Of a stretch of 64,000 bases of DNA, positions 4,132 to 55,695 are shown piece after piece. The notes under the pieces are model-generated. The model saw nothing but the letters and a program-made list of their open reading frames with translations. It was not told where the DNA came from and did not search any database. Position 1 is the first letter of the stretch. Every line of letters starts with the position of its first letter. Source of the stretch: Minisyncoccota bacterium (GTDB taxonomy: Bacteria > Patescibacteriota > Minisyncoccia > Phycocordibacterales > JAGLOS01). The DNA lies in the NCBI GenBank assembly GCA_023137615.1, contig JAGLOS010000001.1:1067-65066 (forward strand), written 5' to 3'. A program made the translations under genes and the position numbers.

Positions 4132-5466
4132 CTACAAATTTTGCTCTTGATGTGTGAGGTTGTGTACACATTTCTTGAACAAATCACCTTTTTCTTCAAA
4201 ATTTTTATACAAACTATAGCTCGGTGACGCCGTTGAAAGTAAGCTCATTTTACCTTTTGGTGTATTAGCCGTGCAATATTGCACGGCTTCTTCCATATTA
4301 TCAGTAGAAAGAACTTTTGGAGAATATTCTTTTTCAGTATTTATAAGTTCCCCAATCTTTTTTCCTGTGTCCGGAAGAAGGACAATGGTCGATACCGAAT
4401 ATTCTTTCAATTTTCGCACAAGTCCACTAAACTCATAGCCCCGATCCTCTCCACCCAAGATAATAGATCCAAGTTTTTCCTTAAAAACTTCAATACCCGC
4501 GATTGTTGATTCCGGTGTTGTTGAAATAGCATCATCATAAAAATGAACACCTTTGACATTATCAACATATTCCAATCGATGAGGCAGTCCATAAAATTGT
4601 GAGATCGATCTTTCAATAACATTATTCTCAACCCCTAATAAATGTGTCGCGGAAATAACAGCAAGAACATTATCTTTATTATGATCACCGGGTATTTTTA
4701 CTGCGCCAACGGGAAATATCTTATTTCCACCTTCATAAAACCATTTTTCGTCATACCACACATTATCTTGTTCACCATATATTATTTTTTTTGCTTTGGT
4801 TTCTAACTCTGTCAATTTTTCATATTGTTTGTTTACAATAAGAAGATCTTCTTCGGATTGACCGCGCGTAATATTTTTTTTTGCGTTGAAATAATTATCA
4901 AATCCTCCGTGGTAGGTAAGATGATCCGGGAATAAGCTTGTAATAATTGCGATATGCGGATGAATATGCGTGCCTTCAAGTTGATAGCTGGAAAGCTCAC
5001 AAACAAAAGTAGTATTTTTACACTCAACGTATTTGAGAGCGGGAACACCTATATTTCCGATAAGTTCTGTTTGCCTGCCATCCTCTTTGAGTACCTCAAA
5101 AAGCATGGATACAACCGTACTCTTGCCCTTAGAGCCGGTAACACCAACAACAGTATTAGACGAATCTATAGAATCAAAAAATATTTGAGTCGCTGATGTT
5201 ATTTTTTCAGCAAGTGGTTTAAGCTCGGGCGACATAGAGATCCCCGGTGTTTTTATAATAACGTCAAAATCTCCAAGACTATCTTGATAATTTTCCCCTT
5301 TTAAAAGGCTCACATTTTTATCTGAGCAAGATAAATTTTCATTCTGGTCTGCTATAGCAAAATGTTTATCCGGAAAATATTTTCTGAGCACACGAAGAGT
5401 TTCCACACCTTCCCTGCCAAACCCAAGTAAAACTATTTTTTTATTTCCAAGAGTGCTGATATTCAT
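4132..5466 (-). CDS. murD: UDP-N-acetylmuramoyl-L-alanine--glutamate ligase (MurD family)
   Basis: 444 aa. N-terminal Rossmann LLGFGREG and Mur ligase P-loop GVTGSKGKST, plus C-terminal Mur ligase domain. Confidence 0.85.
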   Translation of the reverse strand: MNISTLGNKKIVLLGFGREGVETLRVLRKYFPDKHFAIADQNENLSCSDKNVSLLKGENYQDSLGDFDVIIKTPGISMSPELKPLAEKITSATQIFFDSIDSSNTVVGVTGSKGKSTVVSMLFEVLKEDGRQTELIGNIGVPALKYVECKNTTFVCELSSYQLEGTHIHPHIAIITSLFPDHLTYHGGFDNYFNAKKNITRGQSEEDLLIVNKQYEKLTELETKAKKIIYGEQDNVWYDEKWFYEGGNKIFPVGAVKIPGDHNKDNVLAVISATHLLGVENNVIERSISQFYGLPHRLEYVDNVKGVHFYDDAISTTPESTIAGIEVFKEKLGSIILGGEDRGYEFSGLVRKLKEYSVSTIVLLPDTGKKIGELINTEKEYSPKVLSTDNMEEAVQYCTANTPKGKMSLLSTASPSYSLYKNFEEKGDLFKKCVHNLTHQEQNL

Positions 5467-6866
5467 AATTTTTTGATAATATTTCTAAACTCCTGCGGAA
5501 CAGTATCTACAGAGCTTACGGTAAGAGCTTCTTTTATAAGTCTATCCGGATCTTCAACGTTTCCAAGAATGTTGTCGTCAAAATATTTCATAATAAAGTC
5601 ATTTGCATATTCCCCTTTTCTACTTGCTAATATAAATGCTGCCATACTTTCCTCCAGTGTTCCTACACACTCAAAAGGCTTGAACTTATGTTTACCAATA
5701 AGAGAAAGAAAAAGGGGCTGAAGTTTTTCGTCCGCAAAAAGATTTTTACCAAATATTTTTACAACCTCTTCTTTAGGAAGAAAGGCAGATAAAGCCAAGA
5801 AAATAAAAGCACACTTAGGACAAAAGCCGCACCATTTCCCCTTAGGTTTTTCTTTTGTTATTGTCCAATTCGCGTTACAACTCGCAAAAAGTGGAAAATA
5901 ATCTTTGTATTGTGAAAATATTTTTATTATCTTAAGCTCGCAAAGAGGTCGCAGTAGACTGAAAACTTCAATACTGGGAGTAATATACTTATGTAGATAT
6001 TCTGAGAAAGCTTTTTCAAACGTTAGACTTTTGCTGTACTGATGATTTATGACTTCACCAAGGTACTCTACATTTCCCTCGTCCGCACTTTTTTCAATTG
6101 AATGAACAACATGTTTATAGCCAAACAATATACAAAACACCACAGAAAGAAAGTTGATATACGCTGTAATGGGAATATGTCCATTATACGCACCCTCTTC
6201 GTTGAGACGGAAAAGCTCCGGCGATAATTCTCTTTTAATATATAGAGTTCCCTTTCCGGCTTTTTCCGCTATCTTCCGGATCGTCTCATTCTCCCCGTAT
6301 CTTAAAAGATCAAAATCTATTTCTTCGTGCTTCATTAATTCTGTCGCCACAATGGAATCTTTGCCTCCGCCTAAGAGCACCAGTGTACGCGAAGGAAGTT
6401 TCACCTCGGAAGCAGAGCTATGAACATCTTTCTCAAAGGGAAAATTAACAAGACCCCTAAAATCAATATTATTCTTGAAAAAGAATTCGCCAAGACCCTT
6501 GGTGTAAATATCATTCCAAAAAACAGCTTGTTCTTTTGAGAGATTGCCCGAGGAAATTTTTATCTCAGGAGGACAATATATTTTATAATAACTTACCCCC
6601 GCTATTAAATGGAGGTTAAATAATGCTTTATCTAATAATTCTTTATCAAATTCAAAATAATCATTGTCCGGTAGTTTTATTTTTTCACAGAAAAAAACGT
6701 TACTATCAAGAGAATAAAAAAGTTTAATTTCTCTCTTTTCTTTATTGAATTCATACGATTCAAATATAAAAGTCTTGTACTTACCCATGTAGGAATAATA
6801 CAATGTTATTTGTAATTTATAAACCGGTTTAACTCTCGTTGAAAGTGGTTTTACCCTAAATATCAT
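5463..6866 (-). CDS. PP-loop ATP pyrophosphatase-superfamily protein; candidate MurL-type UDP-MurNAc-L-Ala-L-Glu epimerase
   Basis: 467 aa. PP-loop LVLLGGGKDS and Cys cluster WCGFCPKC. Its stop overlaps the murD start by 4 bp, suggesting translational coupling. The MurL assignment is inference only. Confidence 0.5.
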   Translation of the reverse strand: MIFRVKPLSTRVKPVYKLQITLYYSYMGKYKTFIFESYEFNKEKREIKLFYSLDSNVFFCEKIKLPDNDYFEFDKELLDKALFNLHLIAGVSYYKIYCPPEIKISSGNLSKEQAVFWNDIYTKGLGEFFFKNNIDFRGLVNFPFEKDVHSSASEVKLPSRTLVLLGGGKDSIVATELMKHEEIDFDLLRYGENETIRKIAEKAGKGTLYIKRELSPELFRLNEEGAYNGHIPITAYINFLSVVFCILFGYKHVVHSIEKSADEGNVEYLGEVINHQYSKSLTFEKAFSEYLHKYITPSIEVFSLLRPLCELKIIKIFSQYKDYFPLFASCNANWTITKEKPKGKWCGFCPKCAFIFLALSAFLPKEEVVKIFGKNLFADEKLQPLFLSLIGKHKFKPFECVGTLEESMAAFILASRKGEYANDFIMKYFDDNILGNVEDPDRLIKEALTVSSVDTVPQEFRNIIKKL

Positions 6867-11633: not shown

Positions 11634-12179
11634 TTGAGCTTACCAAAGGAAAAAACGTTGGAAAACCTTGTTATTTCAAGTGTAAAGGGCGATGAACGGG
11701 CTTTTCGTTTTCTTTATGAGCGGCTCAATGACCCGTTGTTTAAATATATTCTCTCTCGAACAAAAGACAGAGATGACGCGACCGACATTCTTCAAGATGT
11801 CTTTGTTGATCTTTGGAGAGCATTAGATACGTTTACTTATACATCAGATGGTCAGTTTTACGGATTTGTATTTACTATCACCAAACGCAAGCTTGGAAAA
11901 CATTATAAAAACAAAAAAGTTTTCCGCGAGATCGATGAGAATCTTCTTGAAAATAGTTATAAAATGGACGTGGAGTTCGCCGATGATGCACGAATCCTCA
12001 TGAAGGCGATCGAGGAATTAAAAGAAAAATACCGCACCGTCATTAAACTTCGTTATTGGTCGGGGCTCACCTTCCCCGAAATGGGAAAACTTCTAGGAGA
12101 TAAAGAAACAACCGTAAAGGTGCGACACCATAGAGCGTTAAAGCTATTGGAAGACATTTTAAAAACATATGAACAATAA
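11634..12179 (+). CDS. RNA polymerase sigma-70 factor, ECF subfamily
   Basis: 181 aa. Region 2 (ILQDVFVDLWRALDTF) and region 4 HTH (GLTFPEMGKLLGDKETTVKVRHHRALKLL). Confidence 0.8.
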   Translation: MSLPKEKTLENLVISSVKGDERAFRFLYERLNDPLFKYILSRTKDRDDATDILQDVFVDLWRALDTFTYTSDGQFYGFVFTITKRKLGKHYKNKKVFREIDENLLENSYKMDVEFADDARILMKAIEELKEKYRTVIKLRYWSGLTFPEMGKLLGDKETTVKVRHHRALKLLEDILKTYEQ

Positions 12180-13785
12180 AAAGATACAGAAAATTTTAAA
12201 AAACATTCATGTAAAACCGCTTACTTTGCGCGAGCAAGATTTGGTATGGGAGAGAATCCGTTTTGACATGACACAAACCCCAATACAGAAAGCTGTACAC
12301 TCTCGAGCTATTTCTCCTTTTAAAAAGTCTATTGCCATTACCCTTATTTTCGGACTTACCGCGGGAACAGCTTTTGCGGCAGACAGCGCCAAACCAGGTG
12401 ACCGGCTTTTTGTAATTGATCGTGCCTTGGAAGGTATTCAAATGTCTGTTGCATCTGAAGAAAAGAAAGACGACCTTCGTGTTAAATTTGCGCTTGAACG
12501 CGTCAAGGAGGTAAAAGAAATATTTAAGGAGATCGATGTACACTCAACAAATACTTCGATAAAGGTTGCCCCAGTTACCCCAGAGGAAGACGATCAACCC
12601 ATAGAAACCCCTGCGGAAGAAAGTGACGACACTCCCCCAGAAACAGACAACACAGATTTAGAGATCGAAGTTACGGATGATGTTGAGGTTGAAGAAATAA
12701 CAGATCTCGACATAGAGACAGTCGATGAGCCGGAAGAAATTGAAGATAGGCCAGTGGTAACGGAAGACATTGAGGTCAATCCTATTGAGTCGGAAGAAGG
12801 TGCTTTGGAAGAAACCGCAACTGAAGATCAGGACACTAAAACCGAACCGGAGTCCCCTTCTGACACCACAAAAGATATTCTTTCTTCTGATGAGACACCG
12901 GAACCTGTTGGCATTGGAGAAAACCCCGCAGACACAACAGACGATCCTGCCAATATGTCCGATATCGAACATATTGAAGACCAATTGGAACAGGTTGGCG
13001 CTGATGCTTCACTCTCAGACGGAGACAAAAAACGTATTGAGCTTGCGCTCGGCACAGCCCTTTCGTTCTTGGGAGATGTTAAAGGCGAGCTTATCGAACA
13101 AGAAAATACTGACGCTGTCTCATATATCGACCTAATGCTTGAACAACTTAACAATGAGATCGCTTCACTTCCGGAAAATGTAGTATTTGAGATCAACCTT
13201 TCTGCAAAAAAAGAAACGGTAAAATTTGAAATAACATCACAAGACGACAAACCAAAAGTGCAGATCGAAGTGCAAGAGAAAGACAATGTTGCCCAAGAAA
13301 TAGAAACCGAACCAATACAGAAAGAAAAAACAGAACCTGCCAAATCAACTCTTGAGATCAAAGAAGGCGGTCTTAAAATAACGTCTCAGGAAGAGGTGGT
13401 AGAAGATATTGAAAAAGACGTAGAAGAAGGTGAAAGCGTAGATATCGTAGATATTGATATTGATGAAACAAAAGACGGAGATGGCGCAGAAAAAAAAGAA
13501 AATGAAGACGGGACGCTTCTGGATGTAGAGGTTGTTATAGAAAAAGCCGAAGGAGAAGAAAATGAAGAAGGTACTACTGAGGACGAAAGTCTAAAAGAAG
13601 AATTGCCGGAAGAAGAGTCAACAGACACCACAGAAGTAGAACCACAAGAAAAAGATGACGGTACTACCACAGTAAAAATGATCATTGAACAATGGGAAGG
13701 CGATCTTGAGATATCAGTAACCGATCAAGGTGCGGGTCTTCACGATATTATTGAAGAATATACTGACGAAAAAGGAGATGTTTAG
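12169..13785 (+). CDS. putative membrane-anchored anti-sigma factor (DUF5667-like) with long D/E-rich tail
   Basis: 538 aa. Start overlaps the sigma stop by 11 bp. One TM helix, then a PGDRLFVIDRALEGIQ...KFALERVKEVKE segment resembling DUF5667, then about 400 aa very acidic low-complexity repetitive sequence. Confidence 0.6.
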   Translation: MNNKKIQKILKNIHVKPLTLREQDLVWERIRFDMTQTPIQKAVHSRAISPFKKSIAITLIFGLTAGTAFAADSAKPGDRLFVIDRALEGIQMSVASEEKKDDLRVKFALERVKEVKEIFKEIDVHSTNTSIKVAPVTPEEDDQPIETPAEESDDTPPETDNTDLEIEVTDDVEVEEITDLDIETVDEPEEIEDRPVVTEDIEVNPIESEEGALEETATEDQDTKTEPESPSDTTKDILSSDETPEPVGIGENPADTTDDPANMSDIEHIEDQLEQVGADASLSDGDKKRIELALGTALSFLGDVKGELIEQENTDAVSYIDLMLEQLNNEIASLPENVVFEINLSAKKETVKFEITSQDDKPKVQIEVQEKDNVAQEIETEPIQKEKTEPAKSTLEIKEGGLKITSQEEVVEDIEKDVEEGESVDIVDIDIDETKDGDGAEKKENEDGTLLDVEVVIEKAEGEENEEGTTEDESLKEELPEEESTDTTEVEPQEKDDGTTTVKMIIEQWEGDLEISVTDQGAGLHDIIEEYTDEKGDV

Positions 13786-18398: not shown

Positions 18399-18574
18399 AA
18401 TAACAGGTATTAAACTCCAGAGCAAGCTCTGGACTCAATTTTGAGTTCGCTTCGCTCACACTGACCCGCGGCAAGCCGACGGGGTATTTACCTGATATTA
18501 GCTCCTCGGCTCGGGAATGTAAAAGTTACGCTTCGCTCCACTTTTACATTCCGCTCGCTCTACGTCGCTAATAA
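18399..18574 (+). repeat. MITE-like intergenic repeat, family R1, copy A
   Basis: 176 bp between divergent cupin and U32 genes. Termini are taataacaggtattaaactccagag ... cgctcgctctacgtcgctaataa. Contains internal inverted repeat gaatgtaaaagt/acttttacattc. An inverted, longer copy lies at 52081-52370. Confidence 0.7.
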
Positions 18575-18683
18575 CAAACCCTAACTGCCATTATACTACA
18601 CTCCCATACATACACCATTAAGCTAACCGATCTGCTCTTTTTTTGCTTGGTGCTTTTCGTATCGACATACTTCTGCTATTCTA

Positions 18684-24516: not shown

Positions 24517-24580
24517 TTTTGGCGGTTATGTCACTAAAACTACTCTATACAAGGAGTCTTTACTACTTATTTGTCATGGG

Positions 24581-24678
24581 GTGCACTGCTCGCTCCACTT
24601 CGTTACGCTCCCAGCACTGTCCTTTGACAAAGCGACATAAAAACCGATGCTTTCGCATCGGTTTTTATGTCGGTCAAA
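24581..24678 (+). repeat. tRNA-flanking repeat, family R3, copy 1
   Basis: gtgcactgctcgctccacttcgttacgctcccagcac ... aaaaccgatgctttcgcatcggttttt. A related copy lies at 30490-30576. Both abut a minus-oriented tRNA 3' end. Confidence 0.6.
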
Positions 24679-24864
24679 GGGTGCCTACCCGGAATATTCA
24701 CTGCTCACTCCTTTCAGTCGTTGCGCTTTCGGAACCCACGGTTCCGAATGACCTCCTCCACGGGGGCGTTCCGCTGCCCCCGACCCCCTACGGGTTCAAA
24801 TCCGGGTAGACAACTTCTGATAACAAATAAACGACTAGCAAAAAGCTAGCCGTTTATTTGTTAT

Positions 24865-26567: not shown

Positions 26568-26692
26568 CAGCCCCTTCTCCTCCACTTCGTTACAGAGCGG
26601 GGACCCGCTGCTCCGTCTTTCAACTCCCGCTCTGGGCTACATAATACAGCAACCCCGAAGCGCTGCTTCAGGGTTGGTATTTTGTGCTGAGT
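26568..26692 (+). repeat. 121-bp direct repeat unit B, copy 1
   Basis: Identical to the 26776-26895 copy. Contains an inverted copy of the tRNA-Leu 3' end (tcaactcccgctctgggc) and the ctccacttcgttac motif shared with family R3. Confidence 0.75.
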
Positions 26693-26775
26693 TGGTAGGG
26701 AGCTGGTCACGAATCACTAAGCTTTTTGTTCGTCTTTCAGACTCCAAAAAACTAAGTGTTCGCGACCCCGACTCG

Positions 26776-26895
26776 CAGCCCCTTCTCCTCCACTTCGTTA
26801 CAGAGCGGGGACCCGCTGCTCCGTCTTTCAACTCCCGCTCTGGGCTACATAATACAGCAACCCCGAAGCGCTGCTTCAGGGTTGGTATTTTGTGC
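26776..26895 (+). repeat. 121-bp direct repeat unit B, copy 2
   Basis: 100 percent identical to copy 1. Runs directly into the 3' end of tRNA-Leu. Confidence 0.75.
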
Positions 26896-29525: not shown

Positions 29526-29568
29526 AAACTATTTTGAGTTACTATAAATAAAAGCACTTCGTCTTATG

Positions 29569-29644
29569 TTATCTCCTCGGCTCGGAAGTAAAAAGTTTCG
29601 TTTTACTTCACTTTTTACTTCTCTCGCTCTACGTCGCTAATAAT
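29569..29644 (+). repeat. family R1 partial copy C
   Basis: ctcctcggctcggaagtaaaaagtttcgttttacttcactttttacttctctcgctctacgtcgctaataa. Overlaps the last codons and stop of acyP. Confidence 0.65.
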
Positions 29645-29914
29645 ATTAAACTCTGAAAACTCGCCCGTTGCTTCTTCCCAAAAACTTTCCACATTATCAA
29701 CACGAGAGAGTAAGGGTCCTTTTTTTAGAAGAACTAAAAGCTGTTTCAATTTTTCTTCTTCACCTTCAGCTATCACTTCTACTGAACCGTCCTTTATATT
29801 TTGCACCCTACCAACCAGACCAAGCCGACGAGCTTTTCTCGTCGTAAAATCACGAAACATAACCAACTGCACTCGACCCGCTATCCGGCATTTTAATCTC
29901 TTTGTCATTGCCAT
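29615..29914 (-). CDS. acyP: acylphosphatase
   Basis: 99 aa. VQLVMFRDFT (VxGxVQGVxFR-type) and acylphosphatase fold. The C-terminal codons lie inside repeat R1-C. Confidence 0.8.
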   Translation of the reverse strand: MAMTKRLKCRIAGRVQLVMFRDFTTRKARRLGLVGRVQNIKDGSVEVIAEGEEEKLKQLLVLLKKGPLLSRVDNVESFWEEATGEFSEFNIISDVEREK

Positions 29915-30088
29915 TTATTATATAACATAATAAGAATATGCAACGTTACAGATATCCAGAGTGCTTGAAAAAAGTCAAAAAGTGCGGTATTCTAGAAAAA
30001 CAAATGGGACAAAGTGTTCTTGATTATAAGTTTAATAAAATAAAAATATGGGTAGAGTAGGACCATAATGTAATTAATAAAACATGAT

Positions 30089-30162
30089 GGGCGATTAGCT
30101 CAGTTGGCTAGAGCAACCCGTTTACACCGGGTAGGTCGGGGGTTCAAATCCCTCATCGCCCA
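30089..30162 (+). tRNA. tRNA-Val(TAC)
   Basis: 74-nt cloverleaf. Anticodon loop TTTACAC. T-arm GGGGGTTCAAATCCCTC. Confidence 0.85.
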
Positions 30163-30164
30163 CA

Positions 30165-30207
30165 CGCAAAATTAAAATCACCCTTTTGGGGTGATTTTAA
30201 TTTTGCG
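30165..30207 (+). terminator. terminator hairpin after tRNA-Val
   Basis: cgcaaaattaaaatcaccccttttggggtgattttaattttgcg is a perfect long inverted repeat. Confidence 0.6.
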
Positions 30208-30399
30208 CTGTGACGATAGGAAGTGAACTGCTTCACTTCCGTGGGGATTTGAACGGCGGAGTATGTTGGTAAACACCGAGCAAAGCTTGGCGTTTACCAA
30301 CAGCGAGCCGCGTCCAGCGATACTTATTAGATTTCGATTCGTCTTTGACGAAAAAGAAATATAATTAGTAATCGTGGGACGAATCCCTCATCGCCCACA
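30208..30399 (+). repeat. tRNA-linked repeat family R2, copy 1 (ends in a duplicate of the tRNA-Val 3' end)
   Basis: Shares ggatttgaacggcggag, gcgagccgcgtccagcgaYacttaYtagatttcga and aaatataRttagtRatYgtgggac with 55470-55695. Its last 18 bp (aatccctcatcgcccaca) are a direct repeat of the tRNA-Val 3' end 220 bp upstream. Confidence 0.7.
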
Positions 30400-30489
30400 G
30401 CCGCCAAAACAGCACTTATCAGTGCTGTTTTGTTTTGCAACTTAGTAACAGCAACGAAAAAAAGATGCTTCGCAATCTATTTAAGTATA

Positions 30490-30576
30490 AGTGCACTGCT
30501 CACTCCTCTTCGTCCCATTCCCAGCACGACTTACGTAACAACAAAAAAACCGATGCTTTCGCATCGGTTTTTTGTT
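30490..30576 (+). repeat. family R3 copy 2, abutting tRNA-Arg 3' end
   Basis: gtgcactgctcactcctcttcgtcccattcccagcac ... aaaaaccgatgctttcgcatcggttttt. Confidence 0.6.
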
Positions 30577-30648
30577 GGTTACTAAGTGCCCCCGGCAGGA
30601 ATCGAACCTGCAATAAGAGCTTAGAAGGCTCTCGTTATATCCATTTAA
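30577..30648 (-). tRNA. tRNA-Arg(TCT)
   Basis: 72 nt. Anticodon loop CTTCTAA. T-arm GCAGGTTCGATTCCTGC. Acceptor GCCCCTG/CGGGGGC. Confidence 0.8.
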
Positions 30649-30791
30649 CTACAGGGGCATATTTACTCTATCATATTATCAAAAGACCGTTCACTCGTCA
30701 CAAAACTTATTACAATGCGTCTGATAATCAAACACTCTGTTTGTCCGCTGTCAGCTTGTATCATTCCGAGAGTGACGGGCTTCATGGTTCT

Positions 30792-30816
30792 GCGTTATAT
30801 CCATTTAACTACAGGG
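30792..30816 (-). repeat. 25-bp direct duplicate of tRNA-Arg(TCT) 5' half
   Basis: cgttatatccatttaactacagggg repeats positions 30623-30647 of the gene 143 bp away. Confidence 0.7.
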
Positions 30817-30870
30817 GATAGTACTCAAACCACACAAGCCTCTTCATGGTCGTTCAAAAATATAGCAGTA

Positions 30871-31353
30871 TTACTTAAGAAGGTCAACAAACAACGCTTT
30901 CCATACCGATGCTTCATTCGACATTCTTGTCACAACCTTTTCTATATATTGAATCGCGTTTACACTTATTTCATCGGAAGAAAGTTCTTCCGATGGGACC
31001 ATGCTACTGCTTTCCGTAGTTGTCGACAGTATGCTTTCGAATGTTCTTTTTTCTTTTAAAAGTTCCGCGTGTTCCTGTTCTTTTTTCTCAAAATACACCA
31101 CGGTCTCTGCTAATTTACTCTGTAACGCCTTTACCTCTAACACCTCTTGCGTCTGCCCTTCTGACACCACCTGATCGGCGCCATGAATATAATATTTATT
31201 GAAAGCATGATATCCAAACACAGATACTCCGACAAGAGACACAAACACTCCGATAAGAATAACTGTCCATTCTCTGTATGGAGTTATGTATAATTTTGAT
31301 CTGTCTCGATGACAACAATATTTTATTTTTTTCTTTAAAAGCAGAATGTCCAT
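30871..31353 (-). CDS. hypothetical membrane protein in pilMNO operon
   Basis: About 160 aa. One TM helix then coiled-coil. Last gene of the pilM-N-O operon, possibly PilP-like. Confidence 0.4.
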   Translation of the reverse strand: MDILLLKKKIKYCCHRDRSKLYITPYREWTVILIGVFVSLVGVSVFGYHAFNKYYIHGADQVVSEGQTQEVLEVKALQSKLAETVVYFEKKEQEHAELLKEKRTFESILSTTTESSSMVPSEELSSDEISVNAIQYIEKVVTRMSNEASVWKALFVDLLK

Positions 31354-38248: not shown

Positions 38249-38265
38249 TGGAGAGATGGCTGAGT
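38249..38265 (+). repeat. duplicate of tRNA-Ser 5' end
   Basis: ggagagatggctgagtg 114 bp upstream of the intact gene. A degenerate 3'-end-like fragment lies at 38652-38677. Confidence 0.6.
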
Positions 38266-38378
38266 GTTCAATGAGATCCTGCGAGAGGTGGTAACATCGA
38301 GTAGTTGATCGAATTAATGATTGATACTCGAAGCTACTCAAGAATAAATAAAGTTCTTACAATAAATCAATATAACAT

Positions 38379-38465
38379 GGAGAGATGGCTGAGTGGTCGA
38401 AGGCGACGGTCTTGAAAACCGTTGAGGGTTTACGCCCTCCGTGGGTTCGAATCCCACTCTCTCCG
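38379..38465 (+). tRNA. tRNA-Ser(TGA)
   Basis: 87 nt. Anticodon loop CTTGAAA. Long variable arm. T-arm GTGGGTTCGAATCCCAC. Confidence 0.85.
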
Positions 38466-39162
38466 CATAAAACGTTCAACCCTAATGCGACACAGCATTG
38501 GGGTTGTTACGTTTTACCAGAAGGAGTGGGGTTCGAAAAAAGTCTCGTGCGAAGCCTAACGTAACGAAGTGAAGTCAGAACGAGACGGCGAGGTCACGAG
38601 TTCTTAGAGAAAACAAGTCCGCAGGACGTAGTTTGAACTTAGAACTGGGGACCGAATCCCAATCTCTCCGCAAACAGTAACTTCACGTTCCATACTCAAA
38701 TACCCAAAAAGTCTTTGTGGCAACAATAGACGACTGGTCGATAAACTTAAATAGTCTATCTACATCATAAGTGTAAACAACAGTCCCTGGAGAGGAACCC
38801 GTTGTTGCTGTGTATGGGGTTCCTTCACAATTAGCTTCTAAGTAAAATATTTGATATTAAAACGATTGTTAGTAAGCTCGGAAAACTTGTAAAAGGAAAA
38901 TAAGACTCTTAGCGCGTACTATTACCTATGATACGAGCACAAACAAAATACTCTTGGTAAAAAATACAGAAGCAAAATTTTGGTAAGCCCTTGGTGGTGG
39001 GTGGGAGTATGAGAAAGTTAAAGTATATAATTTATATTATCCCCGTTTATTTAAGTTTTTTACTGGTGTTTATATATTTTACATTTATACTTATAAATAA
39101 GACAAAACTGGGGATTTGTTGATTATTAGTTTTTATCAGTTTTAATAATCAATAACTTTAAT

Positions 39163-50086: not shown

Positions 50087-50112
50087 CAACTGAAGAAAGT
50101 GAGGGGGGGGAA

Positions 50113-50131
50113 ATTCCTGCCGAGAGGACAA
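50113..50131 (+). repeat. 19-bp direct duplicate of the candidate tRNA-Arg(GCG) 3' end
   Basis: attcctgccgagaggacaa repeats 50071-50089 after a 23-bp spacer. Confidence 0.65.
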
Positions 50132-52054: not shown

Positions 52055-52080
52055 CAAAAAACCGCCTTTCGGCGGTTTTT

Positions 52081-52370
52081 TTATTAGCGACGTAGAGCGA
52101 GCGGAATGTAAAAGTGGAGCGAAACGCAACTTTTACATTTCCAAGCCGAGGATCTAATATCGGATAAACCCGTCTGCCGGCAGGCGGGTACTCCGTCGGC
52201 TTGCTGCGGGAAAATGTGAGCAAAACGAATTCAAAATTGAGTCCAGAGTGAGAAGCGAATACTTGGAGCTTCGCAAGACTCATTGAGAGCTTTTATGAGC
52301 AAAGCGAAATAAAAGATCCAATGAGTGGACAGAACCTGTAAGGTTTGCTCTGGGGTTTAATACCTGTTAT
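52081..52370 (-). repeat. MITE-like repeat family R1, copy B (inverted, extended)
   Basis: Reverse complement of copy A, with the same termini (ttattagcgacgtagagcgagcgg ... tttaatacctgttatt). Carries two internal insertions of about 25 and about 100 bp relative to copy A. Confidence 0.7.
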
Positions 52371-52387
52371 TTTTCAGTTTCTAAAAA

Positions 52388-55166: not shown

Positions 55167-55239
55167 CCGCCCATAGCTCAGTTGGTAGAGCAGTTGCCTT
55201 TTAAGCAAACGGTCGTAGGTTCAAGTCCTACTGGGCGGA
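55167..55239 (+). tRNA. tRNA-Lys(TTT)
   Basis: 73 nt. Acceptor CCGCCCA/TGGGCGG. Anticodon loop CTTTTAA. T-arm GTAGGTTCAAGTCCTAC. Confidence 0.8.
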
Positions 55240-55242
55240 CAA

Positions 55243-55285: not shown

Positions 55286-55469
55286 AGCAAACTGCTTTGC
55301 TTGCGACGCTTGTCCGAGGCGGAACCATAATTTTTCTGTAATGAAATGGAAGAAAAATAGGTGAGCCGGGGTCGCGAGCACTTAGCAGATTTGAATCTGA
55401 GTTTACGAAGATGCGACATTGTTTTCTTATGAGTGAAACGAATTAGAAAACAAGAAGTGCCCTTGTGGT

Positions 55470-55695
55470 GAAAAATATGCTTAGTGACTTGTGACGACAA
55501 TGGATCTGAACGGCGGAGCATGGGTCCCTGCCTGAAACGAAGTGTAAGGTAGGGCTGCGAGCCGCGTCCAGCGACACTTACTAGATTTCGAGTGAAGCGG
55601 AGAAATATAGTTAGTGATTGTGGGACAAGTCCTGTGTTTATCTTTAAATTCGAGCCTTGCGAGAACAAAAAATATGCTTAGTGACTTGTGACGAC
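55470..55695 (+). repeat. tRNA-linked repeat family R2, copy 2, flanked by 27-bp direct repeats
   Basis: The core shares three blocks with 30208-30399. It is flanked by aaaaatatgcttagtgacttgtgacgac at 55472-55498 and again at 55668-55694. Confidence 0.7.

What the first reader, a model, noticed from the sequence alone, without database searches (positions are those of the whole stretch)
30089..30830. tRNA-Val / tRNA-Arg locus with att-like duplications on both genes
Between tRNA-Val (+) and tRNA-Arg(TCT) (-) lies a 217-bp R2 element that ends in a perfect 18-bp copy of the tRNA-Val 3' end. Then comes an R3 element abutting the tRNA-Arg 3' end. On the far side a 25-bp copy of the tRNA-Arg 5' half sits 143 bp from the gene. 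This 750-bp segment concentrates four repeat units and two direct tRNA-end duplications with no protein-coding capacity.
Basis: seen in the sequence. Interest (0 to 1): 0.6.

Follow-up and report, generated by a model that had tools for sequence, protein, structure and literature searches.

The report
Structured non-coding cassettes behind tRNA genes
The duplicated tRNA ends are real and belong to a widespread, apparently undescribed family of small, tightly folded non-coding cassettes that sit behind tRNA genes in Patescibacteria, each carrying both an antisense and a sense copy of its neighbouring tRNA's 3' end.

Summary
Both duplications are exact and non-random: the 18-mer at 30147-30164 and 30382-30399, and the 25-mer at 30633-30657 and 30793-30817. 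They are not local oddities. In the window, five of seven tRNAs (Val, Lys x2, Leu, Ser) are followed on the same strand by an R2-type element. A covariance model finds 46 copies in 29 Patescibacteria loci, behind tRNAs of 12 amino-acid identities, at a median gap of 75 nt.

Each unit runs: terminator; antisense of the tRNA acceptor 3' strand; hairpin P0; antisense of the T-arm ending in invariant GAAC; conserved three-way-junction core ending in GGGAC; sense copy of the tRNA from the T-loop to N73-CA.

The fold is strongly supported: 93.7% of cells paired, 30 of 35 pairs compensatory, z = -10.5. There is no Rfam or literature match. No recombinase lies in the window or next to the 19 copies checked.

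Relatives show an empty tRNA-Val site, different cassette arrays, and the exact pre-insertion junction.

Most likely this is a non-autonomous cassette that enters the T-loop and regenerates the tRNA 3' end. The mechanism is inferred.

The tRNA-Arg 5' duplication is the mirror-image case: a promoter-bearing 160-bp unit, with one extra copy in one sample.

The parts
30089..30163 (+). tRNA-Val(tac), intact. CCA is not encoded; N73 is followed by CA.
   Evidence: ARAGORN; Rfam tRNA model, 70.6 bits.
30147..30164 (+). S0: the first 18-mer, AATCCCTCATCGCCCACA. It covers the tRNA-Val T-loop 3' half, T-stem 3' strand, acceptor 3' strand, N73 and CA.
30165..30207 (+). Terminator-like perfect palindrome 'termA' (CGCAAAATTAAAATCACCC-TTTT-GGGGTGATTTTAATTTTGCG). 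It travels with R2: the same hairpin precedes R2 in relative L120.
30207..30217 (+). Anti-acceptor segment (GCTGTGACGAT). It is complementary to ATCG..CCCACAGC of the sense copy and of the tRNA 3' end.
   Evidence: MFE fold; the same segment is seen in 22 other tRNA-element pairs.
30219..30240 (+). P0 hairpin (GGAAGTGA-ACTGCT-TCACTTCC). It sits at the position matching the acceptor/T-stem boundary of the tRNA.
30243..30254 (+). Anti-T segment. GGGGATT is the 5' strand of P1. It is followed by TG and the family-invariant GAAC, the complement of the universal GTTC of the T-loop.
30254..30310 (+). P2: a CGGC/GCCG stem, a conserved GGA/GA internal loop, and a variable hairpin.
   Evidence: RNAalifold and pair counts.
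30312..30380 (+). P3: GTCC/GGAC, CGAT/ATCG, ACTT/TAGT and a variable hairpin. It ends in the invariant GGGAC.
30382..30399 (+). S1: the second 18-mer, the sense copy of the tRNA-Val 3' end. It forms the 3' strand of P1 and of the acceptor-like closing stem. By comparison with relatives it is probably the displaced original tRNA 3' end.
30400..30436 (+). 'termB' (GCCGCC AAAACAGCAC-TTATCA-GTGCTGTTTT GTTTT). In relatives L119 and L120 this terminator directly follows tRNA-Val.
30491..30579 (-). R3: an intrinsic terminator (30544-30573), then a 37-nt motif ending GGAGTGAGCAGTGCAC, then a 7-nt copy (GCACTTA) of the extreme tRNA-Arg 3' end with its trailer. A paralogue lies behind tRNA-His. It reads as a short or decayed cassette of a second core type.
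30586..30658 (-). tRNA-Arg(tct), intact.
30658..30792 (-). 135-bp insert between the two 25-mers. It carries a promoter-like site (TTGTGA-17-GATAAT, 30703-30675) just upstream of the intact tRNA-Arg. No homologue was found in the fetched loci.
30793..30817 (-). Upstream 25-nt copy of tRNA-Arg positions 2-26. It lies 41 nt behind the conserved promoter (30887-30859) and is probably the displaced original 5' part of the gene.
30859..30887 (-). Conserved tRNA-Arg promoter, TTGACC-17-TATATT. It is also present upstream of tRNA-Arg in relatives L119 and L122.
55317..55638 (+). Two tandem R2-type cassettes downstream of tRNA-Lys(ttt): 55317-55496 (weak, 26.6 bits) and 55497-55638 (111 bits).
26693..26840 (-). 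R2-type cassette of the E1 subfamily downstream of tRNA-Leu(gag). Its 19-nt antisense, GCCCAGAGCGGGAGTTGAA, is an exact complement of the tRNA. That antisense is repeated at 26619-26637 in a second tandem unit.
38524..38672 (+). Diverged R2-type cassette downstream of tRNA-Ser(tga). Its sense copy at 38653-38672 matches the tRNA at 19 of 20 positions.
24576..24863 (-). Two nested cassettes behind tRNA-His. The first is an R4-type unit (antisense 24794-24809, sense copy 24679-24693). The second is an R3 copy (24581-24674) ending in the 9-nt tRNA end GCACCCCAT (24576-24584).
50113..50131 (+). 19-nt direct copy of the tRNA-Arg(gcg) 3' end, only 23 nt behind the gene. This is a minimal or deleted unit.
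38250..38266 (+). 17-nt copy of tRNA-Ser positions 1-17, lying 112 nt upstream of the gene. It is a second example in the window of the 5'-side duplication seen at tRNA-Arg.

Best explanation
R2 is one copy of a family of small (about 130-230 bp), gene-less, highly structured cassettes. They live in the 3' trailer of tRNA genes in Patescibacteria.

In the tRNA's orientation the unit reads:
- tRNA 3' quarter, from the T-loop to N73-CA;
- terminator, or a short CGAACGAAGTGAG loop;
- antisense of the acceptor 3' strand;
- P0 hairpin;
- antisense of the T-stem and T-loop, ending in GAAC;
- conserved P2/P3 three-way-junction core, ending in GGGAC.
This is followed by a second copy of the tRNA 3' quarter.

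My reading is that this unit is a non-autonomous mobile cassette. It recombines into the T-loop (positions 56-58) of a tRNA gene. Its own copy of the 3' quarter plus terminator regenerates a working gene. The old 3' end is pushed downstream and becomes the 'att-like' repeat. New cassettes enter next to the tRNA and push older ones outward, where they decay. R3, the short repeat behind tRNA-Arg(gcg) and the truncated copies would be such decayed units.

In the folded single strand (tRNA-sense strand), the antisense segments pair with the sense copy. This rebuilds a duplex image of the target site next to the conserved junction. I take that fold to be the recombination substrate, by analogy with folded integron attC sites or the CTX phage attP hairpin. 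The enzyme would be supplied in trans.

Shown: the architecture, the fold and its covariation, the strict tRNA linkage, the arrays, insertion/absence differences between relatives, and the absence of a cis-encoded enzyme.

Inferred: that the unit moves as a cassette; that the substrate is single-stranded DNA rather than RNA; the crossover point; the trans-acting recombinase; and how the tRNA-specific segments get retailored for each tRNA.

The tRNA-Arg 5' duplication is the mirror case. There a 160-bp unit carries a promoter-like site plus tRNA positions 1-26, and sits inside the 5' part of the gene.
For: Linkage to tRNAs. 41 of 46 model hits lie downstream of, and on the same strand as, a tRNA within 700 nt (median gap 75 nt). 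They follow 37 tRNAs of 12 amino-acid identities. Of the 5 exceptions, 4 lie at the start of a stored sequence chunk and 1 is the third member of a tandem array.

Architecture. The antisense and sense segments matching the neighbouring tRNA are tabulated for 22 pairs. An unbiased scan of 74 tRNAs gave 30 downstream direct copies, mostly starting in the T-loop (C56-A59 in standard numbering) and ending at N73+CA, and 29 downstream inverted copies.

Structure. 16 of 35 pairs are compensatory in 14 sequences. In 45 sequences 93.7% of cells are paired, against 74% when shuffled and about 37% when slid; 30 of 35 pairs show double changes; 0 of 500 shuffles reach the observed values. The window copy folds at -90.2 kcal/mol, z = -10.5, into exactly the predicted closing stem + P0 + P1/P2/P3. 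As DNA it folds the same way (z = -10.1).

Strand. In paired columns G.T occurs 65 times and A.C 14 times, which points to the tRNA-sense strand.

Insertion polymorphism. L122 has an empty site. L119 and L120 have the pre-insertion junction CCCACA|GCCGCC. In L120 an E1 cassette sits next to the tRNA, and the termA+R2 unit, truncated and behind a degenerate tRNA-end copy, lies further out. This fits a newest-nearest order.

Arrays of 2-3 units occur at window tRNA-Lys and tRNA-Leu and in L140.

In-situ constraint. At the orthologous tRNA-Trp locus, where the neighbouring IF-2 is only 65% identical, the core is unchanged, both variable hairpins and the terminator have been replaced, and the sense copy tracks a tRNA substitution.

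A second core type (R3/R4) uses the same GAAC-antisense and sense-copy logic behind tRNA-His.

Hairpin loops are often GCGAAGC or ACGAAGT. GCGAAGC is the known extraordinarily stable DNA mini-hairpin (PMC13037366).

An intrinsic terminator usually separates the tRNA from the element. This fits a 'polite' DNA insertion better than a co-transcribed RNA.
Against: No excision product, circle or recombinase has been seen, so mobility is inferred only from comparisons between species.

No known mechanism explains how the same core acquires matching antisense and sense segments for 12 different tRNA identities. A classical att/integrase system would not do this.

The P0 hairpin always splits the antisense at the acceptor/T-stem boundary. 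That looks like design around tRNA architecture and so favours an RNA-level function.

G.U-rich pairing and a conserved junction are equally typical of a functional RNA.

In several copies (L016, L031, L100) there is no terminator between the tRNA and the element, so those copies must be co-transcribed.

A single copy folds almost as well on the opposite strand (-85.8 kcal/mol).

The loci used to count the tRNA association were retrieved by an R2 motif, so the fraction of tRNAs occupied (37 of 74) is biased upwards.

The alignment used for the pair counts was fitted to the model.
Confidence: 0.4

Rival explanations
1. R2 is a functional tRNA-linked RNA, acting in cis like a riboswitch or acting as a guide. 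It would be transcribed as part of the tRNA trailer.

Its antisense segment can pair either with the 3' quarter of the real tRNA, blocking folding or processing, or with the downstream sense copy, which forms P1 and the closing stem of the conserved three-way junction. A ligand or protein bound at the junction would decide which pairing wins. This would give each tRNA its own maturation control. Alternatively the antisense could guide an enzyme to that tRNA.
For: The sense-antisense-sense order is the classic layout of alternative pairings.

The invariant GAAC complements the universal GTTC, which the cis copy lacks. The antisense therefore pairs more strongly with the real tRNA (mean -30.9 against -23.1 kcal/mol; stronger in 32 of 36 cases).

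The conserved core with variable peripheral hairpins, and the many G.U pairs, look like an RNA domain.

P0 sits exactly at the acceptor/T-stem boundary.

Some copies have no terminator before the element.

The core is conserved in situ at an orthologous locus while its surroundings diverged.
Against: Most copies lie behind a strong intrinsic terminator, with no room for a promoter of their own.

Tandem arrays, truncated copies and decayed sense copies are not expected for a regulator.

Relatives with 64-75% identical UppS lack the element at the same tRNAs.

Strict mismatch counts show the antisense is no better preserved than the sense copy (3.7 against 3.3 mismatches, p = 0.51). The energy advantage is therefore mostly the GAAC:GTTC pairing plus wobble pairs.

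A second, unrelated core uses the same flanks.
Confidence: 0.25
2. R2 is an RNA-mediated mobile element, intron-like or retro-element-like. The unit from position 57 of the tRNA to GGGAC would be an RNA whose 5' and 3' ends meet at the three-way junction. GAAC would pair with the GTTC of a target T-loop, like an exon-binding site. The RNA would reverse-splice, or be copied into tRNA genes with help from a host reverse transcriptase or ligase.
For: In the permuted view the two ends of the unit abut at the conserved junction, next to an unpaired GAAC.

The insertion point is constant at T-loop positions 56-58.

Group I introns are common in Patescibacteria tRNA genes, so ribozyme-based elements do exist in this phylum (PMC13011429).
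Against: There is no Rfam hit to any intron or self-cleaving ribozyme, even at E <= 10.

No interrupted tRNA that would need splicing was found; the upstream tRNA is always intact.

The same paper reports no group II introns in Patescibacteria.

No reverse transcriptase lies in the window or next to the 19 elements checked.
Confidence: 0.1
3. One reading: these are ordinary att scars. Integrase-carrying islands or prophages once integrated at these tRNAs and later lost everything but their attP-proximal arm and the displaced tRNA fragment.
For: Direct partial-tRNA repeats with a regenerated gene are the hallmark of such integrations (Islander abstract, PMC4383910).

Tandem elements separated by partial tRNAs, with newer ones pushing older ones outward, are described for tycheposons.

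Relative L125 has a large serine recombinase and defence genes abutting the same tRNA-Val.
Against: The remnant has the same size and architecture in 46 copies behind tRNAs of 12 amino-acid identities. It has a covarying fold and a core that stays constant while its flanks diverge.

Random deletion products of different islands would not look like this.

No full-length parent carrying R2 next to an integrase was found among the loci examined.
Confidence: 0.07
4. There is no mobility at all: the pattern is a mutational by-product. Template switching at terminator hairpins extends their palindromes outward, copying the tRNA 3' end first in inverted and then in direct orientation. Unequal crossing-over between the repeats makes arrays. 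The conserved core would be a resident element.
For: The antisense is contiguous with the right arm of the terminator palindrome. In L008 this gives a 26-bp perfect stem that includes the tRNA end, and in L119 a palindrome of about 45 bp.

L002 shows an exact extra 160-bp unit between 25-bp repeats, as unequal exchange would give.
Against: It does not explain why the conserved core is found only behind tRNAs, why P0 interrupts the antisense at one fixed position, or why the same core recurs in many genomes.
Confidence: 0.08

Closest known systems
Integrase-borne genomic islands, prophages and tycheposons integrated in tRNA genes (Islander concept; Williams' T-loop sublocation class, the latter from my own knowledge)
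   Same: The insertion falls inside the tRNA gene at the T-loop. The element supplies a copy of the 3' part, so the gene stays intact. The displaced partial tRNA marks the far end. Successive insertions stack up, separated by partial tRNAs, with the newest nearest the tRNA. Related genomes differ in presence or absence.
   Different: There is no integrase, no cargo, and only about 235 bp. One conserved core serves tRNAs of at least 12 amino-acid identities. The element also carries an antisense copy of the tRNA 3' quarter, and the repeated tRNA end is a base-paired part of a covarying structure.
Integron gene cassettes with attC sites, including arrays lacking an integrase (own knowledge)
   Same: Both are non-autonomous cassettes in ordered arrays. 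The recombination site is defined by a strand-specific imperfect hairpin whose structure is conserved. The newest cassette sits next to the entry site. The enzyme acts in trans.
   Different: The RYYYAAC and GTTRRRY core sites are absent. The cassettes carry no ORF. The entry site is a tRNA T-loop rather than attI. Here the central structure is sequence-conserved, whereas in attC it is the variable part. No IntI was seen.
MITEs and REP-like small repeats
   Same: Both are short, non-coding, hairpin-rich and multi-copy, occupy intergenic space, and depend on an enzyme supplied in trans.
   Different: There are no constant terminal inverted repeats, because the paired ends change with each tRNA. 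There is no fixed-length target-site duplication. The target is strictly the 3' end of tRNA genes, in one orientation.
Group I introns in Patescibacteria tRNA genes (PMC13011429)
   Same: Both are conserved structured RNA elements associated with tRNA genes in the same phylum.
   Different: Those introns interrupt the anticodon loop at position 35/36 and must be spliced out. R2 lies outside an intact tRNA, matches no Rfam intron model, and is much smaller.
Guide-bearing transposon RNAs (TnpB/IscB omega RNA, IS110 bridge RNA; own knowledge)
   Same: Both have a conserved scaffold joined to a variable segment identical or complementary to the sequence flanking the insertion site.
   Different: There is no adjacent TnpB, IscB or IS110 gene. 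In R2 the sense and antisense segments cover the same target stretch and pair with each other. R2 does not match the HEARO model or any other Rfam model.

Membership tests
tRNA-integrating genomic island / prophage (integrase-mediated) | The element encodes its own integrase (tyrosine or serine recombinase) | tested here: not met
   The 235-bp unit has no ORF. No recombinase domain was found in any ORF of at least 150 aa in the 64-kb window, nor in the first ORF downstream of 19 elements in other loci.
tRNA-integrating genomic island / prophage (integrase-mediated) | The tRNA gene is regenerated, and a displaced partial tRNA forms a direct repeat at the distal end | tested here: met
   There is an exact 18-mer at 30147-30164 and 30382-30399 with an intact tRNA-Val. 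There are 30 such downstream direct copies among 74 tRNAs.
tRNA-integrating genomic island / prophage (integrase-mediated) | An empty site exists in related genomes | tested here: met
   L122 has tRNA-Val plus its own terminator only. L119 and L120 have the junction CCCACA|GCCGCC, which is split by the insert in the window.
tRNA-integrating genomic island / prophage (integrase-mediated) | One attP/integrase pair targets one specific tRNA | tested here: not met
   The same core (18-24 nt exact, model scores 100-130 bits) lies behind Val, Lys, Leu, Ser, Pro, Thr, Glu, Phe, Tyr, Trp, Arg and Gly tRNAs.
Integron cassette / attC | Conserved inverse core RYYYAAC and core GTTRRRY at the ends of an imperfect hairpin | tested here: not met
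   The ends are ...GGATTCGAAC and GGGAC|GAATCC..., and the paired ends vary with the tRNA.
Integron cassette / attC | Strand-specific folded structure, with cassettes in arrays | tested here: met
   G.T occurs 65 times against A.C 14 times in paired columns. Arrays of 2-3 units occur.
Integron cassette / attC | An IntI integrase is present in the genome | not testable with these tools
   Only 64 kb of the genome is available. None was found in it.
MITE | Constant terminal inverted repeats and a fixed-length target-site duplication | tested here: not met
   The P1 and closing-stem sequences differ at every tRNA. The repeat length ranges from 7 to 21 nt and always ends at the tRNA 3' end.
Any described RNA family (Rfam 15: introns, ribozymes, tmRNA, tRNA-like elements, riboswitches, omega/HEARO RNAs) | Match to the family covariance model | tested here: not met
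   At gathering thresholds only the 7 tRNAs match in 64 kb. At E <= 10 over 29900-31000 there is nothing beyond chance-level miRNA or sRNA hits on the terminator hairpins.
Group I intron in a Patescibacteria tRNA gene | Interrupts the tRNA (anticodon loop) and has a group I core | tested here: not met
   The tRNA upstream of every copy is intact. There is no Intron_gpI hit. The paper describes position 35/36.

The most novel reading that the evidence does not exclude
R2 and its relatives are a new class of protein-less, tRNA-addressed genetic element. A conserved three-way-junction nucleic-acid core carries a rewritable antisense 'address' for the 3' quarter of one tRNA, plus a matching sense copy. 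The address would either direct the unit's own insertion into that tRNA gene, or let it control or mark that tRNA individually. This would be base-pair-guided targeting of tRNA genes with no cis-encoded enzyme. It would also need a built-in way of retailoring the address for each tRNA.
Probability: 0.3. Interest if true: 0.9.

Novelty: new variant of a known kind. Interest (0 to 1): 0.75.

Why it matters
If the cassette reading holds, these streamlined, episymbiotic bacteria carry a mobile element reduced to a folded piece of nucleic acid. It uses the most conserved DNA in the cell, the tRNA T-loop, as a safe landing site and repairs the gene as it lands. That would explain why contigs of these organisms break at tRNA loci. 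It would give a marker for recent DNA exchange among uncultured Patescibacteria. It would also point to an unidentified trans-acting recombinase with generic T-loop specificity.

If instead the RNA reading holds, it would be the first per-tRNA cis-regulatory or guide RNA family in bacteria.

Either way, the family is a well-supported structured element that current RNA and mobile-element catalogues searched here do not contain. Its tRNA-specific antisense and sense tailoring makes a concrete, testable question.

Tried and rejected
1. Rfam at gathering thresholds and at E <= 10 gave no family for R2 or R3.

2. Literature searches by topic and by the literal core sequences found nothing describing the element. 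The closest item, on group I introns in Patescibacteria tRNAs, concerns a different position and structure.

3. A protein-based scan of genome contigs with UppS found no relatives. Orthologous loci came instead from the search for homologous proteins plus look-up of encoding contigs.

4. The 18-mer scan of genome contigs gave 111 hits. Ninety-eight are chance matches in high-GC genomes: they show no flanking similarity, and the model finds only L089 as an extra true member. The single viral-contig hit is also chance.

5. Hammerhead, K-turn, sarcin-ricin and attC-core readings of the conserved loops were considered by eye. None fits the consensus, so none is claimed.

6. I thought the antisense was better conserved than the sense copy, from duplex energies. 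Strict mismatch counts do not support this, so the claim is dropped.

7. I thought R2 had jumped between classes, because some records are labelled Saccharibacteria. The CCA-adding enzyme of one such record (L079) is closest to Pacebacteria and Yonathbacteria proteins. The labels are therefore unreliable, and only 'non-coding repeats far more similar than the proteins' is retained.

8. P0 was tested as an anticodon arm and the element as a D-armless tRNA. The loop sequences do not match the tRNA identities.

9. No homologue of the 135-bp tRNA-Arg insert or of R3 was found outside the window.
Full report
**Observation**

The window is a bacterial chromosome segment carrying L19, UppS, RluA, MetK, PilM and similar genes. 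It is almost identical to contig DAOWAJ010000009 of MAG GCA_030634645.1. The nearest named UppS homologues are from Parcubacteria and Yonathbacteria, so the organism belongs to the Patescibacteria (CPR).

tRNA-Val(tac) lies at 30089-30163 (+) and tRNA-Arg(tct) at 30586-30658 (-). The 18-mer AATCCCTCATCGCCCACA occurs at 30147-30164 and 30382-30399. The 25-mer, tRNA-Arg positions 2-26, occurs at 30633-30657 and 30793-30817. Each occurs exactly twice in 64 kb, with none expected by chance. The gap at tRNA-Arg is 135 bp rather than 143 bp.

**The pattern is general**

Reading the flanks of the other five tRNAs showed the same thing.
- tRNA-Ser has a 19-of-20 copy of its 3' end at 38653-38672, behind an R2-like element, and a 17-nt copy of its 5' end 112 nt upstream.
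- tRNA-Arg(gcg) has a 19-nt copy 23 nt downstream.
- tRNA-His has a 15-nt direct copy, an inverted T-arm copy and a 9-nt end copy.
- tRNA-Leu has two 19-nt inverted copies.
- tRNA-Lys is followed by two R2 units.

**A family, not a scar**

The R2 18-mer GCGAGCCGCGTCCAGCGA retrieved 12 low-GC Patescibacteria loci from the species-representative genomes. One is from the complete Campbellbacteria genome CP011215. A longer 24-mer retrieved 16 metagenome loci. The remaining hits are chance matches in high-GC genomes, apart from L089.

A covariance model built on 14 copies finds 46 copies in 29 loci. Of these, 41 lie downstream of a tRNA on the same strand, at a median gap of 75 nt. They follow 37 tRNAs of 12 amino-acid identities. 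The 5 exceptions sit at chunk edges or are third in an array.

The common architecture, in tRNA orientation, is:
- tRNA ending N73-CA(A);
- a terminator palindrome or a short CGAACGAAGTGAG loop;
- 11-14 nt complementary to the acceptor 3' strand plus trailer;
- a P0 hairpin (GAAAG...CTTTC);
- GT;
- 7-10 nt complementary to the T-stem 3' strand and T-loop, ending in invariant GAAC;
- the P2 and P3 core;
- GGGAC;
- a sense copy of the tRNA from T-loop position 56-58 to N73-CA;
- a terminator.

Some subfamilies (E1, L133) lack P0 and have a contiguous 19-nt antisense.

**Structure**

RNAalifold gives a three-way junction. P1 is specific to each tRNA. P2 has a conserved GGA/GA loop. P3 is the third arm. 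In this alignment 16 of 35 pairs are compensatory.

On 45 copies, 93.7% of cells pair. This compares with 74% in shuffles and about 37% when partners are slid. Thirty of 35 pairs show double changes, and 0 of 500 shuffles reach any observed measure. This alignment was fitted to the model, so it leans towards the structure.

The window copy (30207-30401) folds at -90.2 kcal/mol, z = -10.5. The fold is an acceptor-like closing stem, P0, and P1/P2/P3, so the second 18-mer is fully base-paired. It folds the same way with DNA parameters and nearly as well on the other strand. Across the family, however, G.T occurs 65 times and A.C 14 times in paired columns, which points to the tRNA-sense strand.

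Nothing in Rfam 15 matches. Text searches, including the literal sequence, found no description.

**Comparison with relatives at the same locus**

Synteny (pil operon, tRNA-Arg, tRNA-Val, acylphosphatase, UppS) holds in L119, L120, L122 and L125, whose UppS is 83, 84, 75 and 64% identical.
- L122 has tRNA-Val followed only by its own terminator.
- L125 has a large serine recombinase and defence genes abutting the tRNA.
- L119 and L120 have tRNA-Val joined directly to the GCCGCC terminator, which in the window follows the second 18-mer. After it they carry an E1-type cassette and then an R2 cassette.
- In L120 the R2 unit is preceded by a degenerate tRNA-end copy and by the same termA hairpin as in the window, and it is truncated.

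So the window carries a 235-bp unit bounded by the 18-mer. Cassette content differs between relatives, and the outer units are the decayed ones.

At the orthologous tRNA-Trp locus of two genomes whose IF-2 is 65% identical, the core is unchanged. Both variable hairpins and the terminator have been replaced, and the sense copy follows a substitution in the tRNA. The core is therefore constrained or renewed in place.

**The tRNA-Arg side**

The conserved promoter TTGACC-17-TATATT lies upstream of the first 25-mer. The 135-bp spacer has its own promoter-like site immediately upstream of the intact gene. Relatives have no such duplication.

The scan of 74 tRNAs found 15 upstream direct copies of 5' parts, starting at position 1 and running to position 16-48. 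In L069 the copy is a 43-bp repeat that includes the promoter. This is the mirror image of the 3' case.

One sample's contig (L002) has an exact extra 160-bp unit, giving three 25-mers. Several contigs break inside this locus. This is either copy-number variation or an assembly artefact.

R3 is a terminator, a 37-nt motif and the last 7-9 nt of the tRNA. It occurs only behind tRNA-Arg and tRNA-His in the window. Behind tRNA-His, its motif also closes a full antisense-core-sense unit built on a different core.

**No enzyme in cis**

All ORFs of at least 150 aa in the window that match a Pfam family are housekeeping genes, and none has a recombinase, transposase or reverse-transcriptase domain. 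The first ORFs behind 19 elements elsewhere encode RF, aaRS, IF-2, S1, MscS, RNR and the like.

**Interpretation**

The best-supported account is a non-autonomous cassette. It enters the T-loop and regenerates the 3' end and terminator from its own copy. It leaves the old end as the repeat, and it is recognised as a folded single strand in which antisense and sense segments rebuild the target duplex.

This works like integrase-borne tRNA islands and like integron cassettes. It fails the defining tests of both: no integrase, one core for many tRNAs, and no attC core sites.

The main rival is an RNA that acts on its own tRNA. It explains the sense-antisense-sense layout, the position of P0 and the invariant GAAC. 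It is weakened by the intervening terminators, the arrays, the decay and the patchy distribution.

How the tRNA-specific segments are retailored for each tRNA is unexplained under every model.

**Caveats**

The association counts come from loci retrieved with an R2 motif, so they are biased. The taxonomic labels of some records are unreliable. An apparent better conservation of the antisense did not survive a strict test.

Noticed in passing
window 18399-18581; 52074-52371 (-); 29547-29643: This is a second repeat family ('R1'). It is a hairpin GGAATGTAAAAGT...ACTTTTACATTCC with a GCGAAGC-type loop on the opposite strand, and it is not next to tRNAs. One copy is 96.6% identical over 88 bp to L079, a genome whose proteins show almost no nucleotide-level similarity to the window. 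Copies also occur in L119, L122, L125 and L133.
   Followed up: partly
L119 (rc 5380-6122), L082 677-837 flank, L120: A 20-bp perfect palindrome, CCTGCCTGCCGGCAGGCAGG, is inserted inside some R2 copies or inside their sense copy. It looks like a separate tiny REP- or MITE-like insertion.
   Followed up: no
window 55452-55470; also L119, L120, L079: A module ending AAGAAGTGCCCTTGTGGTG recurs between cassettes. In L119 and L120 it is inserted between the antisense segment and the core. It appears to be another mobile or recombining sub-unit.
   Followed up: no
L125 5761-7450: In a relative, a 541-aa large serine recombinase gene ends 10 nt inside the 3' end of the orthologous tRNA-Val. It is preceded by defence-type genes (SLFN/AlbA_2, SocA_Panacea). 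No second copy of the tRNA end lies within the 16.7-kb locus. An imperfect copy of tRNA-Val positions 1-50 lies 64 nt upstream of the gene.
   Followed up: partly
L002 700-1044 (= window 30633-30817): One metagenome contig from the same population carries an exact extra 160-bp unit, giving three 25-mers. Contigs L001 and L003-L006 all end inside 30143-30817. The locus is either polymorphic or hard to assemble.
   Followed up: partly
window tRNA 3' ends (30162-30164, 38465-38467, 50087-50089, 55238-55240): Six of the seven tRNA genes do not encode CCA. In Val, Ser, Arg(gcg) and Lys the discriminator is followed by CA, and the downstream sense copies of Val, Ser and Arg(gcg) include this CA. Only tRNA-His encodes CCA.
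   Followed up: no
L089 5611-5950 (-): This is a higher-GC (56%) member of the family. It lies behind a sequence with a perfect tRNA 3' end that ARAGORN does not call as a tRNA. That sequence may be an intron-containing tRNA of the kind described in PMC13011429.
   Followed up: no
window 13486-13664: Three imperfect copies of a 29-nt repeat (GCAGAAAAAAAAGAAAATGAAGACGGGAC) lie inside the 538-aa ORF at 12169-13785, which has no Pfam match. They would encode a repetitive stretch within that protein.
   Followed up: no
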